A stretch of 43,077 bases of DNA from a virus (lineage: Duplodnaviria > Heunggongvirae > Uroviricota > Caudoviricetes), in the IMG/VR virus record IMGVR_UViG_2563366968_000005, positions 1 to 43,077 of that record. One strand, written 5' to 3'. Below are positions 1 to 6,000 of the stretch, piece after piece. Position 1 is the stretch's first letter. Each line of letters opens with the position of its first letter. The position numbers were made by a program.

Positions 1-3000
1 TTACTTCTTCGCCTCTGCAACCACTTTACTACCCACGCCGCGGTTATTGTATTCCCACATGCGGTTGTAGTTAGTGTCATTCAGATTGCGCTGTATTTCG
101 TCGTTATCATCTACGCTGCCGGTATTACCCGCAAACGGACGATTAGAGATCACCGCATCGGCCCACGGTTTAGCCGTGTTAAAACCTTCGTTGATGGCGC
201 TATCACGGATCACCACCTGACCGTTGGTATTGGCATCAACATCCAGCGAGCGGCCCAGTTGCGCCACACCATCACCGAAAGCATTGAAACGGCTGTTTAC
301 GGCGAGGAAACCGTAGTAAATGTTGGACAGCGTAGCCGGTGCAAACACATACGCTTCTTGCTGAGTACGTGAGTTCACCACGCGGAATTCGGTGTTATCG
401 AACACCACTGCGCCGCGACCAGAAACGATATCCACATCCCCTTCAATGTAGCTGTTGGTCACCAGCGTACGCGGCTGACGATTCGTTTCCAGACGGTTCT
501 GCACACCGCTGTTGGTGACAAAGAAGGTGTTCTGACGACCGAGAATGTTAACGTTGTTAATCTGTACCTGGTCACCATCAGTACGCAGTGCCACCGCCGG
601 ATGGTTACCTGCATCTACGCTATCGCCCAGCGTGTTTTCGATGGTCAGATTTTGCAGTTGCAGGCCATTGTTTTGTGACCAGAAGACCGCAGAGCAGAGA
701 ACACCGATACTGTCGCTGCGTTTGCTCTGGCAGCTATCGTACATATACCACGCTGGTTTACCTGGCATATATTTGCCGCGCGGGTTGACGTCGTGACGCC
801 AGTCGGCAGGGCTCATGCCACCATCAAGGGAAAGCCCAATCTTCACATCAATCGGTTTTTCACCTGTACCGTACAGAGTAATTCCACCCGGAGCGGCAGG
901 GACATATACCGTTCCCTGATACTCACCAGGCATCACGGCAATATACTGGCGCTTGTTGGTACGCTTGATAATTGCCGCATCTACCGCCGCCTGAATCGTG
1001 GTATGCGTTACACCTTGAGTGCCCGCCGGGCCGACAACAAAGTCAGGTTGCGCAGGCAGGGTAATCAGGGAAGGATTCCACGCTGCAGCACCTGGTGTCA
1101 GGGATGAAAAATAGTGTTGAGCATCGAAATTCTGCGCTTCTTTTGCCGACAGAATCGGGCGAGAAGAGGTACCAGGCGCGGTTTGATCAGAAGGACGTTG
1201 ATCGGGCGGGGTTGAGCTACAGGCGGTCAGCGTCACGCCAAAAGCCAATGCCAGCGCCAGACGGGAAACTGAAAATGTGTTCACAGGTTGCTCCGGGCTA
1301 TGAAATAGAAAAATGAATCCGTTGAAGCCTGCTTTTTTATACTAAGTTGGCATTATAAAAAAGCATTGCTTATCAATTTGTTGCAACGAGCAGGTCACTA
1401 TCAGTCAAAATAAAATCATTATTTGATTTCAATTTTGTCCCACTCCCTGCCTCTGTCATCACGATACTGTGATGCCATGGTGTCCGACTTATGCCCGAGA
1501 AGATGTTGAGCAAATTTATCGCTTATCTGCTTCTCATAGAGTCTTGCAGACAAACTGCGCAACTCGTGAAAGGTTGGCGGATCTCCTTCGAAGGAGAGAC
1601 CTGATGCTTTTCGTGCGCGCATAAAATACCTTGATACTGTGCCGGATGAAAGCGGTTCGCGACGAGTAGATGCAATTATGGTTTCTCCGCCAAGAATCTC
1701 TTTGCATTTATCAAGTGTTTCCTTCATTGATATTCCGAGAGCATCAACATGCAATGCTGTTGGGATGGCAATTTTTACGCCTGTTTTGCTTTGCTCGACA
1801 TAAAGATATCCATCTACGATATCAGACCACTTCATTTCGCATAAATCACCAACTCGCTGCCCGGTAACAACAGCCAGTTCCATTGCAAGTCTTAACCAAC
1901 ATGGTGATGATTCTGCTGCTTGATAAATTTTCAGGTATTCGTCAGCCGTAAGCCTTGATCTCCTTACCTCTGATTTTGCTGCGCGAGTGGCAGCGACCGG
2001 GTTTGTTGTTATATGGCCTTCAGCTATTGCCTCTCGGAATGCATCGCTCAGTGTTGATCTGATTAACTTGGCTGACGCCGCCTTGCCCTCGTCTATGTAT
2101 CCATTGAGCATTGCCGCAATTTCTTTTGTGGTGATGTCTTCAAGTGGAGCATCAGGAAGACTCCTCCTTATTGCTTTAATTTTGCTCATGTAATTTATGA
2201 GTGTCTTCTGCTTGATTCCTCTGTTGGCGAGAATTTTTTCGTAGCGATCAAGCCATGAATGTAACGTAACAGAATTATCACTGTTGATTCTCGCCGTCAG
2301 AGGCTTGTGTTTGTGTCCTGAAAATAACTCAATGTTGGCCTGTATAGCTTCAGTGATTGCTATCCTCCTGTCTCTGCCTAATCCGAACTCTTTACCCGTC
2401 CTTGGGTCCCTGTAGCAGTAATATCCATTGTTTCTTATATAAAGGTTAGGGGGTAGACTGGCCCCCTGAATCTCCAGACAACCAATATCACTTAAATAAG
2501 TGATAGTCTTAATACTAGTTTTTAGACTAGTCATTGGAGAACAGATGATTGATGTCTTAGGGCCGGAGAAACGCAGACGGCGTACCACACAGGAAAAGAT
2601 CGCAATTGTTCAGCAGAGCTTTGAACCGGGGATGACGGTCTCCCTCGTTGCCCGGCAACATGGTGTAGCAGCCAGCCAGTTATTTCTCTGGCGTAAGCAA
2701 TACCAGGAAGGAAGTCTTACTGCTGTCGCCGCCGGAGAACAGGTTGTTCCTGCCTCTGAACTTGCTGCCGCCATGAAGCAGATTAAAGAACTCCAGCGCC
2801 TGCTCGGCAAGAAAACGATGGAAAATGAACTCCTCAAAGAAGCCGTTGAATATGGACGGGCAAAAAAGTGGATAACGCACGCGCCCTTATTGCCCGGGGA
2901 TGGGGAGTAAGCTTAGTCAGCCGTTGTCTCCGGGTGTCGCGTGCGCAGTTGCACGTCATTCTCAGACGAACCGATGACTGGATGGATGGCCGCCGCAGTC

Positions 3001-6000
3001 GTCACACTGATGATACGGATGTGCTTCTCCGTATACACCATGTTATCGGAGAGCTACCCACATATGGTTATCGTCGGGTATGGGCGCTGCTTCGCAGACA
3101 GGCAGAACTTGATGGTATGCCTGCGATCAATGCCAAACGTGTTTACCGGATCATGCGCCAGAATGCGCTGTTGCTTGAGCGAAAACCTGCTGTACCGCCA
3201 TCGAAACGGGCACATACAGGCAGAGTGGCCGTGAAAGAAAGCAATCAGCGATGGTGCTCTGACGGGTTCGAGTTCTGCTGTGATAACGGAGAGAGACTGC
3301 GTGTCACGTTCGCGCTGGACTGCTGTGATCGTGAGGCACTGCACTGGGCGGTCACTACCGGCGGCTTCAACAGTGAAACAGTACAGGACGTCATGCTGGG
3401 AGCGGTGGAACGCCGCTTCGGCAACGATCTTCCGTCGTCTCCAGTGGAGTGGCTGACGGATAATGGTTCATGCTACCGGGCTAATGAAACACGCCAGTTC
3501 GCCCGGATGTTGGGACTTGAACCGAAGAACACGGCGGTGCGGAGTCCGGAGAGTAACGGAATAGCAGAGAGCTTCGTGAAAACGATAAAGCGTGACTACA
3601 TCAGTATCATGCCCAAACCAGACGGGTTAACGGCAGCAAAGAACCTTGCAGAGGCGTTCGAGCATTATAACGAATGGCATCCGCATAGTGCGCTGGGTTA
3701 TCGCTCGCCACGGGAATATCTGCGGCAGCGGGCTTGTAATGGGTTAAGTGATAACAGATGTCTGGAAATATAGGGGCAAATCCAGGGGGTAAATCCCGGC
3801 GCTCATGACTTCGCCTTCTTCCCATTTCTGATCCTCTTCAAAAGGCTACCTGTTACTGGTCGATTTAAGTCAATCTTTACCGCTGATTCGTGGAACAGAT
3901 ACTCTCTTCCATCCTTAACCGGAGGAGGGAATATCCTGCACTCGCGTACCCATCGACGAACTGTTTCAAGGCTTCTTGGGCGTCGCTGGCGTGCGTTCCA
4001 CTCCTGAAGTGTCAAGTACATCGCAAAGTCTCCGCAATTACACGCAAGAAAAAGCCGCATTGATGCGGCGATGGTAGGTCTGGATATCTTGAGAAATGAA
4101 CAGGCCTCATTGAGTGTGAGGCTGTGGTTAGTCCTTGCGTAGCTCGCTAATTCTTCTATAAGTCTCTGGTGCTTTGTTTCCGTGTATCTTCATTTCAGAC
4201 TTCAACAGAGCAACAAGGGAATCCCATTCGTTGAGGATGCCTTTGAATGCCGGAACGCGCTTTGCAACCTTGTCGAATGAATCTCTGATTTCTGGAATCT
4301 GCTCAACAAGTGCAACGCATCGTCGGAAATCGGCTGCGTCATGTGGAGCGCCGAAGTGATGACCATAGATATTCTTTTTCAGTCCACATGCGATTGAGGC
4401 AAGAGTTGCGCTACTGATGCCGACATCGCCAGTCGATTGCCATTTCAAAACCTTCATAGCCAAATCTGACATTTCTTGTCTCCAATAAAAAACCGCCATC
4501 AGGCGGCTTGGTGTTCTTTCAGTTCTTCAATTCGAATATTGGTTACATTGTTTTCATATATGAATAAATAAATTAGCTTTTTTCGTTGCCTTCGCGTTCT
4601 TTATTAATTTTGACAAACTCGTTTTTACCACGCTCTCCAAATGCGTCTTTAGAGTCGTTGTATCCGCAATCGCAGCACACATAATCACCAGACCATCCAC
4701 GCATTGTTTTTTCTTTTGCAATATTTCCAGAACCGCATTTTGGACAAGACATATCACTACCTCCAAAGCATGAGTGAGATGACAACGTAACATTGATTGG
4801 AGATTAACAATAGATTGCTGATGTAAAAGATATGTATAAGCTTCGCTTTCAAAGTGGAGGCTCTGGTAGCGGCATCCAGTGAGTTACGTCATCCAAGATA
4901 TTTCCTGATAAATACGTGAAAGCTCTATATCTTTTGTAATCAATTGGATTTACAACCCAGTTCCAATATGCGGCCACGATTTCACCTTGACTAAATGCCA
5001 GTAACATTTTGGTGTCTTCCGGCATTCGCTCACTACAGTTTATCCAACTATCCGGAGTTACCGGAGAGTTGCCAGCCAGTCTACGCAAAACAGCCTTAAC
5101 AGCCTCAATACGGTCATCATCGCAATTTTCCAGCGTATCTATGCGGTCGAGCATGATGATGGCGTTATCAATATCAGGATTGCCAGTCCACTCATTACCG
5201 CGATTGGATTCGGCAGCCTGGTTGCCAGATGCTGGCTGATTGTCGGCTTGGTTATAGCTAACAGCACGGCAGGCATCCTCTACGCCTTTAACTGCATCTG
5301 CACAGTAGTTATAGCGATTGCATTCCACTAACTTCTGCTTGAGATTTTCAATTGCTTGCGCGACATCAGCCTGTATTACGGGAACGGGGGGAGCGGCGTA
5401 TACTTCAATTGTCCCATTATCAATAGGCCACTCTCCATCCTTGATGTAGTCACTTGTACCGTCAACTTGCTGTTCTGCAATGTGGAATGCACCTATTGGT
5501 TTTGTCTCAAGCGATGCCAGTGCAATTCGTGCCACTTCCATTTGTTCGCCACGGGTAAGCCCGTTATCAAGCGGATTTTTAATGAATAATTCGATACGTT
5601 CTTTGGTAATAGTGGTCATAGCTATTTCACCTTAATCTCAACATTTCGCAGCTTTAGCTCTACTGGCAGGTCTGACTTTCCGGTTAATGCTAATGCGAGA
5701 TTTTCTGGAGTAATGAGAGCCGTTATTGTTTTCCCCATCGCCAGACGAATAATCATTCGTATCTCGCGATCGTCACATGCTCCCGGCCGAACAATTGAGA
5801 TTTGTCCGTTCATCTCACTCTCCTTTGATGCGAATGCCAGTGGTACTCATTCTCCTGATTTCCCAGAGCACACGAGGAACACCACCGTTTCCGACCGGAT
5901 CGCGTTTACTCCGCAGGGCGACGCTTGATTCCGCCCAGCTTTTTCTTGGAGGAAGCTCTTTCACACGAACAAAACCAGCTGCGCGGAGAGATGCTCCTGA

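What the first reader, a model, noticed from the sequence alone, without database searches (positions are those of the whole stretch)
1419..3825. IS2 inserted after codon 14 of lambda int, creating a possible IS2-Int fusion and a likely excision-defective prophage
A complete IS2 with a GGGGG target duplication splits int within its first 14 codons. The minus-strand frame reads continuously from an ATG inside the IS2 left end into int codon 15 onward (track ORF 1419..2588), so a chimeric Int with a 44-residue IS-derived N-terminus in place of MGRRRSHERRDLPP could be made. The Int N-terminal domain binds arm-type sites, so the fusion is probably impaired, which would lock the prophage and its accessory genes in the chromosome. 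xis and attL are intact.
Basis: seen in the sequence. Interest (0 to 1): 0.6.

Follow-up and report, generated by a model that had tools for sequence, protein, structure and literature searches.

The report
IS2 knocks out a prophage integrase
A mobile element (IS2) has jumped into the start of the integrase gene of an otherwise complete-looking E. coli prophage, almost certainly stopping the virus from cutting itself out; this is a real but ordinary, strain-private mutation.

Summary
A complete 1331-bp IS2 lies at window 2454-3784, flanked by a 5-bp GGGGG target duplication. It splits a lambda-type int gene inside codon 14. Removing IS2 and one duplicate copy restores a 356-aa Int that differs from lambda Int at 4 residues. 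xis, the pI/cII site and the attL P' arm are intact, and attR exists just beyond the window.

The "fusion" is only a mechanical ORF. It opens at GTG 2588, not ATG, so 47 residues replace Int 1-14 (29 from the first ATG, 2534). None of its in-frame starts has a Shine-Dalgarno sequence, and no promoter-like site lies in IS2. The int body abuts IRL, not the IRR end that carries IS2's known outward -35. Any product would lack the basic N-terminal tail of the arm-binding domain.

Most likely this is an int-null or severely crippled allele in an otherwise apparently intact CUS-3/P22-like K1 prophage at att-lambda, that is, a "locked-in" prophage.

The allele is private. It occurs on one NCBI draft genome and in 0 of 1,947 complete E. 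coli genomes that carry this int-xis module uninterrupted.

IS disruption of prophage integrases is a well-known route of prophage decay. Interest is low.

The parts
1..1284 (-). ybhC (pectinesterase-like lipoprotein), the host gene left of att-lambda
   Evidence: 427-aa ORF. Annotated ybhC at the same position next to int. Pfam Pectinesterase.
1331..1421 (+). attL: 15-bp core GCTTTTTTATACTAA (1331-1345) plus the P' arm with arm-type sites P'1-P'3 (about 1391-1421)
   Evidence: It is the only core copy in the window. 99/100 nt are identical to lambda core + P' arm.
1419..2453 (-). Distal int fragment: last base of codon 14, codons 15-356, stop, and the distal copy of the target duplication
   Evidence: Pfam Arm-DNA-bind_1 (positions 10-74 only), Phage_int_SAM_1 and Phage_integrase.
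2449..2453 (.). Target-site duplication, left copy (GGGGG; int nt 37-41 on the minus strand)
2454..3784 (+). Complete IS2 (1331 bp): IRL 2454-2495, orfA 2545-2910, A6G frameshift motif 2862-2868, orfB 2868-3773, IRR 3744-3784. The transposase is transcribed opposite to int.
   Evidence: 1327/1331 identical to annotated IS2; HTH_Tnp_1, rve, rve_3.
3785..3789 (.). Target-site duplication, right copy (GGGGG)
3785..3825 (-). Proximal int fragment: start codon and codons 1-13 plus two bases of codon 14 (MGRRRSHERRDLPP). It overlaps the 3' end of xis as in lambda.
3607..3825 (-). Truncated product expected from the native int start: Int 1-14 followed by 58 residues read from IS2 antisense, then a stop
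   Evidence: 72-aa ORF; no Pfam match
1419..2588 (-). Mechanical 'fusion' ORF (389 aa from GTG 2588; 371 aa from ATG 2534). No Shine-Dalgarno sequence at any in-frame start.
   Evidence: The 371-aa version is what a gene caller recorded in the source genome.
3803..4021 (-). xis, intact (72 aa; V50I and G59S vs lambda Xis)
   Evidence: Pfam Exc, 138 bits
4034..4047 (-). cII-binding TTGC-N6-TTGC motif of the pI promoter, identical to lambda
   Evidence: Sequence comparison. Its function is inferred from lambda.
10267..10650 (-). N-like antitermination protein gene. It is relevant because N-modified pL transcription is the only plausible way to read through IS2.
   Evidence: PHROG 271, E=3.8e-38; Pfam N_peptide

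Best explanation
A recent, strain-private transposition of an intact IS2 into codon 14 of a lambda-type int gene has created an int-null or near-null allele. The prophage is otherwise complete-looking: a CUS-3/P22-like mosaic integrated at att-lambda between ybhC and ybhB-bioA.

Shown:
- The insertion, its target duplication and the exact restoration of int on in-silico excision.
- Intact xis, pI/cII site, attL and attR.
- Full-length late genes.

Inferred mechanism:
- The native int ribosome-binding site and start now drive only a 72-aa junk peptide that terminates inside IS2.
- The remaining 342 codons have no promoter or ribosome-binding site of their own. They lie behind 1.3 kb of untranslated IS2 antisense RNA, so transcripts from pI should mostly be lost to polarity.
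- Anything initiated at GTG 2588 or ATG 2534 would lack the basic N-terminal tail of the arm-binding domain and would carry a 29-47-residue foreign extension at the first beta-strand.
- Lambda-type excision needs Int bound to arm sites P2, P'1 and P'2 together with Xis, so the prophage should be unable to excise.
- On SOS induction it would replicate in situ and kill the cell, yielding few or no viable phage. The prophage and its cargo (endosialidase tailspike, neuO) are therefore fixed in the chromosome unless IS2 is precisely lost or Int is supplied in trans.
For: - IS2 anatomy and target duplication.
- In-silico excision restores lambda-like Int with all catalytic residues.
- IS2 is 99.7% identical to annotated IS2 and has intact orfA/orfB.
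- No Shine-Dalgarno sequence at any of the three in-frame starts.
- No promoter-like site and no intrinsic terminator inside IS2.
- Arm-DNA-bind_1 match drops from profile positions 1-74 (112.9 bits) to 10-74 (95.8 bits).
- Literature: Int NTD 1-64 binds arm sites and the CTD alone cannot recombine (PMC9791396). The flexible N-terminal tail contacts the arm-site minor groove (PMC2831311 citing Fadeev 2009). IS2's outward -35 lies in IRR and acts on genes next to IRR (PMC9330008; PMC3299598), whereas here int abuts IRL. P22 delta-int and delta-xis prophages are locked in and replicate in situ (PMC8575938).
- Prophage otherwise intact: late-gene ORF lengths equal those of relatives. attR core and P arm are present 1.3 kb beyond the window.
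- Private allele: a single contig carries the chimeric protein. 0 of 1,947 complete E. coli genomes with this int-xis module have this junction.
Against: - There are no expression or excision data.
- The prophage encodes an N-like antiterminator. From my own knowledge (Adhya et al. 1974), N-modified pL transcription overrides the polarity of IS insertions, so distal int RNA may be made after induction.
- Translation without a Shine-Dalgarno sequence is weak but not impossible.
- The three-stranded sheet and helix of the arm-binding domain are retained, so a chimeric protein might keep some arm binding. I could not read the primary paper on the tail.
- Another lambda-specificity Int elsewhere in the genome could complement. 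This is not testable from the window.
Confidence: 0.78

Rival explanations
1. A chimeric IS2-Int protein is made and keeps partial activity. After induction, N-antiterminated pL transcripts read through IS2. Ribosomes then start at ATG 2534 or GTG 2588 and produce Int 15-356 with an IS2-encoded leader, allowing low-level excision.
For: - The frame is open from 2588 to the int stop.
- An N-like antiterminator is present.
- No intrinsic terminator lies inside IS2.
- The beta-sheet, helix and linker of the NTD and the whole CTD are retained.
Against: - No Shine-Dalgarno pairing at any start.
- No promoter in IS2.
- The basic tail that contacts the arm-site minor groove is lost.
- A 29-47-residue foreign extension sits directly on the DNA-binding sheet.
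- ATG 2534 lies on the strand opposite the IS2 orfA ribosome-binding site and start, a region bound by OrfA repressor and transposase (PMC3299598).
Confidence: 0.1
2. The prophage is still mobile because Int of lambda specificity is supplied in trans by another resident or superinfecting lambdoid phage. In that case the IS2 insertion has little practical effect.
For: - attL, attR and xis are intact.
- Lambda-type int-xis modules are very common, occurring uninterrupted in 1,947 of 5,426 complete E. coli genomes.
Against: - att-lambda is already occupied by this prophage, so a second resident lambda-specificity Int would need a secondary site.
- Nothing in the 43-kb window encodes another integrase.
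- Even if excised, the genome carries an extra 1.33 kb in a headful-limited P22-like capsid (inference).
Confidence: 0.07
3. The IS2 placement is an assembly or scaffolding artefact of a draft genome.
For: - The source is a scaffolded draft with gaps, and the window itself ends at an N run.
- IS2 is multi-copy in E. coli.
Against: - Both junctions are gap-free.
- A perfect 5-bp duplication of unique int sequence flanks the exact IS2 termini, and its removal restores int to the base. Misassembly does not create target duplications.
- Independent IS2-family insertions in the same gene exist in finished genomes: PSS-16, 19 bp away with duplication GTTTC, and SCU-105, mid-gene with duplication GCAGC.
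Confidence: 0.03

Closest known systems
IS-inactivated integrases of defective or cryptic lambdoid prophages in E. coli
   Same: An IS element interrupts int while the att sites and most phage genes persist, giving a prophage that cannot excise on its own. The same gene is hit by IS2-family elements in E. coli PSS-16 and SCU-105.
   Different: This is a different insertion point and a private allele. The rest of the prophage here looks complete rather than decayed.
Locked-in P22 prophages (P22 delta-int/delta-xis; Mud-P22 of Youderian et al. 1988)
   Same: A P22-type, headful-packaging prophage unable to excise. Such prophages replicate in situ and amplify or package flanking chromosome (PMC8575938).
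   Different: Those are engineered. Here the block is a natural IS2 insertion in a lambda-type int, and neither in-situ replication nor packaging has been shown.
IS2 insertions near lambda int-xis (int-constitutive mutants, Pilacinski et al. 1977) and IS2 hybrid promoters (ampC, Jaurin & Normark 1983)
   Same: IS2 lands in the int-xis region of a lambda-type module. IS2 can alter expression of neighbouring genes.
   Different: In the activating cases the target gene lies next to the IS2 end carrying the outward -35, which is IRR (PMC9330008). Here the int body lies next to IRL and int itself is split, so this is inactivation, not activation. The 1977 lambda work is cited from my own memory and was not checked.
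lambda DE3 prophage of BL21(DE3)
   Same: A lambda-type prophage at att-lambda whose int is interrupted by inserted DNA, so it cannot excise without a helper (own knowledge).
   Different: It is an engineered insertion of the lacI-lacUV5-T7 RNA polymerase cassette, not an IS.
Phage CUS-3 (E. coli K1 RS218)
   Same: A 981-aa endosialidase tailspike of identical length, an adjacent neuO with AAGACTC heptamer repeats, and P22-like head genes.
   Different: CUS-3 has a different integrase located next to neuO, with its own att core. This prophage uses the lambda int-xis-attP module at att-lambda.

Membership tests
IS2 (IS3 family) | About 1331 bp with imperfect terminal inverted repeats of 42 bp (IRL) and 41 bp (IRR) | tested here: met
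   1331 bp. IRL and IRR align over 41-42 nt and end in TA...CA termini. Matches the description in PMC3299598.
IS2 (IS3 family) | 5-bp target-site duplication | tested here: met
   GGGGG at 2449-2453 and 3785-3789.
IS2 (IS3 family) | orfA (HTH) and orfB (DDE/rve) overlapping at an A6G -1 frameshift site | tested here: met
   HTH_Tnp_1 in orfA; HTH_21, rve and rve_3 in orfB. AAAAAAG at 2862.
IS2 (IS3 family) | Near-identity to reference IS2 | tested here: met
   1327/1331 and 1326/1331 identity to elements annotated by PGAP as the IS3-like element IS2 family.
Lambda-type heterobivalent tyrosine integrase (functional gene) | Catalytic residues R212, K235, H308, R311, H333 and Y342 | tested here: met
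   All are present in the distal fragment. Phage_integrase domain scores 138 bits.
Lambda-type heterobivalent tyrosine integrase (functional gene) | Complete N-terminal arm-binding domain (residues 1-64) contiguous with the catalytic part | tested here: not met
   Residues 1-14 are separated by 1331 bp. The Arm-DNA-bind_1 match is reduced to profile positions 10-74.
Lambda-type heterobivalent tyrosine integrase (functional gene) | Own translation start with a ribosome-binding site for the full coding sequence | tested here: not met
   The native start now yields a 72-aa product. No Shine-Dalgarno sequence at the in-frame starts of the distal part.
Lambda-type heterobivalent tyrosine integrase (functional gene) | Cognate att sites with core and arm-type sites, at att-lambda | tested here: met
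   attL core and P' arm are 99/100 identical to lambda. attR core with a P arm precedes ybhB-bioA in the source contig.
IS-driven activation of a neighbouring gene (hybrid or outward promoter) | The target gene lies next to the IS end carrying the outward -35 (IRR for IS2), with a correctly spaced -10 | tested here: not met
   The int body abuts IRL. On the IRR side, the TGGAAA -35 is followed by a TAAAT-like -10 only at 20-21 bp spacing. No promoter-like site is reported in 2454-3825.
CUS-3/P22-like (Lederbergvirus-type) prophage | P22-type terminase, portal, scaffold, coat, gp4/gp10/gp26 and ejection proteins, endosialidase tailspike, neuO heptamer repeats | tested here: met
.
Locked-in (excision-defective) prophage | Failure to form attB/attP after induction; in-situ replication | not testable with these tools
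   Requires induction experiments or read data from the strain.

The most novel reading that the evidence does not exclude
The IS2 knock-out turns an otherwise fully functional, headful-packaging P22-like prophage into a natural 'locked-in' prophage. On SOS induction it would replicate in situ and package unidirectionally from its pac site. Packaging would run through the late genes, neuO and attR into ybhB-bio-uvrB-side chromosome. The prophage would then act as a dedicated lateral-transduction device rather than a phage. At the same time, the phase-variable K1 capsule O-acetylation locus (neuO) would be fixed in the chromosome.
Probability: 0.12. Interest if true: 0.4.

Novelty: new member of a known kind. 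Interest (0 to 1): 0.15.

Why it matters
The practical value is modest.
- It marks this prophage as probably non-excising, which matters for anyone predicting inducibility or the mobility of the K1-specific endosialidase and neuO cargo.
- It is a clean example of an annotation pitfall. Gene callers record the chimeric ORF as an intact 371-aa integrase with all integrase Pfam domains. PGAP does the same for the PSS-16 allele. Prophage "intactness" tools would therefore score this int as present.
- If the locked-in prophage is still inducible, it could drive lateral transduction of the bio-uvrB region. That is known biology for engineered P22 mutants.

Tried and rejected
- **Same junction elsewhere.** Megablast of 1290-4100 against 5,426 complete E. 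coli genomes gave 31 hits with at least 80% coverage. Inspection showed that all but one are IS2 copies lying beside, not in, int and joined by the tool. Only PSS-16 has an IS2-like element in the int 5' end. It is 19 bp away, has a different duplication and is a 95.5%-identical IS2 variant, so it is an independent event.
- **Orientation bias.** All these neighbouring IS2 copies share one orientation. I rejected this as a signal because the tool only joins pieces on the same strand as the query (selection artefact).
- **Exact look-up of the fusion protein.** The 389-aa GTG-start protein is not on record. The 371-aa ATG-start version is, on one contig.
- **Sibling prophage.** I looked for a copy with intact int through a neighbouring gene product and found only the source genome. 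A second genome, GCA_036879815.1, shares the right half of the prophage, but its contig starts inside the prophage.
- **Primary paper on the Int tail.** Fadeev et al. 2009 (PMC2739574) is not held, so I relied on a secondary statement.
- **IS2 orientation literature.** A search for the old IS2 'orientation I/II' work returned nothing usable. Statements about polarity by orientation and about N-suppression are from my own knowledge.
- **Hybrid promoter at the IRR junction.** Considered and rejected because the spacing is wrong.
- **Structure prediction.** Not run. It would not decide function.
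Full report
**What is there**

The window starts in ybhC (1-1284, minus strand). Next comes a lambda attL: the core GCTTTTTTATACTAA at 1331-1345, which is the only copy in the window, plus a P' arm that matches lambda at 99 of 100 positions.

On the minus strand a lambda-type int ends at 1419. It is interrupted by a 1331-bp element at 2454-3784. The element has the IS2 termini (IRL TAGACTGGCCCCC..., IRR ...GGGGCAAATCCA) and 42/41-bp imperfect inverted repeats. It has an orfA with HTH_Tnp_1, an orfB with HTH_21, rve and rve_3, and the A6G frameshift motif at 2862. 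It is 1327/1331 identical to an element PGAP annotates as IS2. It is flanked by GGGGG at 2449-2453 and 3785-3789.

Removing IS2 and one GGGGG restores a 1071-nt int. Its first 90 nt are identical to lambda int. Its product differs from lambda Int at four positions (S89N, G110S, H164P, I248V) and keeps R212, K235, H308, R311, H333 and Y342.

xis (3803-4021) is intact with two conservative changes. The cII-site/pI sequence upstream of it is identical to lambda.

**Corrections of detail**

- The target is int nt 37-41, so IS2 sits inside codon 14.
- The mechanically listed ORF 2588->1419 starts with GTG. It encodes 45 IS2-derived residues plus PP from the duplicated target, so 47 residues replace Int 1-14.
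- The first ATG is at 2534 and gives 371 aa.

**Where it comes from and how common it is**

The 371-aa chimeric protein is recorded on exactly one contig of the large assembly collection: NCBI GCA_000350885.1, scaffold KB732375.1. That contig is identical to the window.

Among 5,426 complete E. coli genomes, 1,947 carry this attL-int-xis module uninterrupted. None has this junction.

Two finished genomes have independent IS2-family insertions in the same gene:
- PSS-16: 19 bp further in, duplication GTTTC, a 95.5%-identical IS2 variant.
- SCU-105: mid-gene, duplication GCAGC.

Several others have IS2 just beyond xis. The shared orientation of these copies is a selection artefact of how the search joins pieces, so I draw nothing from it.

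The allele is therefore a rare, private and presumably recent mutation.

**The prophage**

It is not lambda. The early-left region encodes an N-like antiterminator, Erf, SSB, Abc2, Kil and CIII.

The late region is P22-like: terminase, portal, scaffold, coat, gp4, gp10, needle and ejection proteins. The ORF lengths equal those of relatives.

It ends with a 981-aa endosialidase tailspike of the same length as CUS-3 siaK1. After that comes the start of neuO with AAGACTC heptamer repeats.

The window stops at a scaffold gap inside those repeats. In the source contig an attR (P arm plus core) follows about 1.3 kb further on, and then ybhB and bioA.

The prophage is thus a CUS-3-like mosaic that uses the lambda integration module. 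It is bounded by both att sites and shows no other obvious disruption. I did not check every early gene.

**Is the fusion meaningful?**

The open frame across the IRL junction is unremarkable: 45 sense codons stay open in roughly one random frame in nine.
- Only three in-frame starts precede Int residue 102 (GTG 2588, ATG 2534, ATG 2189). None pairs with the anti-Shine-Dalgarno sequence; duplex dG is +0.3, +1.5 and -0.6 kcal/mol.
- The consensus scan finds no sigma-70-like promoter and no intrinsic terminator on either strand within IS2.
- IS2's known way of switching on neighbours is an outward -35 in IRR that pairs with a flanking -10 (PMC9330008; PMC3299598). Here the int body lies at the IRL end. 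At the IRR end the only -10-like sequence is 20-21 bp away.
- The native int start now produces MGRRRSHERRDLPP plus 58 IS2-antisense residues, with no Pfam match.
- Transcripts from pI must then cross 1.1 kb of untranslated RNA. By established knowledge of Rho-dependent polarity this should terminate most of them (inference).
- N-antiterminated pL transcripts after induction could read through. This rests on my own knowledge of Adhya et al. 1974, and an N-like gene is present. This is the main reason I keep the chimeric-protein rival alive.

**Would a chimeric protein work?**

Int residues 1-64 form the arm-binding domain, and the C-terminal part alone cannot recombine (PMC9791396). The flexible N-terminal tail contacts the minor groove of arm DNA, while the three-stranded sheet reads the major groove (PMC2831311 citing Fadeev et al. 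2009).

The Pfam Arm-DNA-bind_1 match falls from profile positions 1-74 (112.9 bits) to 10-74 (95.8 bits). The sheet and helix survive. The basic tail is replaced by a 29-47-residue unrelated leader attached directly to the first strand.

Excision needs Int at P2, P'1 and P'2 (PMC4880445). Impaired arm binding plus very low synthesis makes effective excision unlikely.

**Consequence**

P22 delta-int and delta-xis prophages are locked in and replicate in situ, amplifying the flanks (PMC8575938). By analogy this prophage should still be SOS-inducible, because its cI carries a Peptidase_S24 domain, and it should still be lethal. It should not release normal phage.

Its late genes and pac lie on the + strand, so any headful packaging would run toward neuO, attR and bio (inference). 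Even if excised with helper Int, the genome carries 1.33 kb extra in a headful-limited capsid (inference).

**Comparison and novelty**

IS disruption of prophage integrases is a standard route of prophage immobilisation. The engineered analogues (lambda DE3, locked-in P22) are textbook cases. The event is a new instance, not a new kind.

The most novel reading still allowed is a natural lateral-transduction device that also fixes neuO. It is possible but untested.

**Verdict**

- Observation: confirmed.
- Interpretation: partly supported. The knock-out is real; a functional fusion is unlikely.
- Interest: low.

Noticed in passing
window 42970-43077 (continues in L010 9100-9995): This is the start of neuO, the phase-variable K1 capsule O-acetyltransferase gene: ATGTT followed by tandem AAGACTC heptamers. 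The window ends at an N-run scaffold gap inside the repeat, so the copy number and ON/OFF phase in the source strain are unresolved. A sibling prophage (L011, GCA_036879815.1) has 18 copies and an in-frame 258-aa hexapeptide-repeat product.
   Followed up: partly
window 1331-43077 as a whole: Mosaic prophage: a CUS-3-like late region with endosialidase tailspike (39880-42825) and neuO, combined with the lambda int-xis-attP module, integrated at att-lambda (ybhC | ybhB-bioA). CUS-3 itself has a different integrase next to neuO.
   Followed up: partly
L002 4146-5476 (E. coli PSS-16) and L001 3706-5036 (E. coli SCU-105): Independent insertions of a 95.5%-identical IS2 variant in the same int gene. 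One is only 19 bp from the window's site (duplication GTTTC) and one is mid-gene (duplication GCAGC). This may be a local IS2 target preference in the int 5' end, but there are too few cases to say.
   Followed up: partly
L008 3001-4116; L002 3130-4173: Gene callers report the IS-chimeric ORFs as ordinary intact integrases: 371 aa with all integrase Pfam domains here, and 347 aa (WP_206311218.1) in PSS-16. Automated prophage-intactness calls would miss the disruption.
   Followed up: yes
window 37563-38099 (-), with 38099-38389 (-): A ClpP-like protease gene (Pfam CLP_protease) lies next to Arc-family repressor genes in the immI-like region between the ejection-protein genes and ant. It is an unusual cargo gene for this position.
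   Followed up: no
window 5815-6312 (-): Mom-like DNA modification protein (PHROG 1384, E=1.5e-42) in the early-left accessory region.
   Followed up: no
L003-L006 (APEC O78 lineage and others): Many att-lambda prophages carry an IS2 or IS2-like copy a few hundred bp beyond xis, each with a different target duplication. IS2-family elements accumulate in this accessory region.
   Followed up: partly
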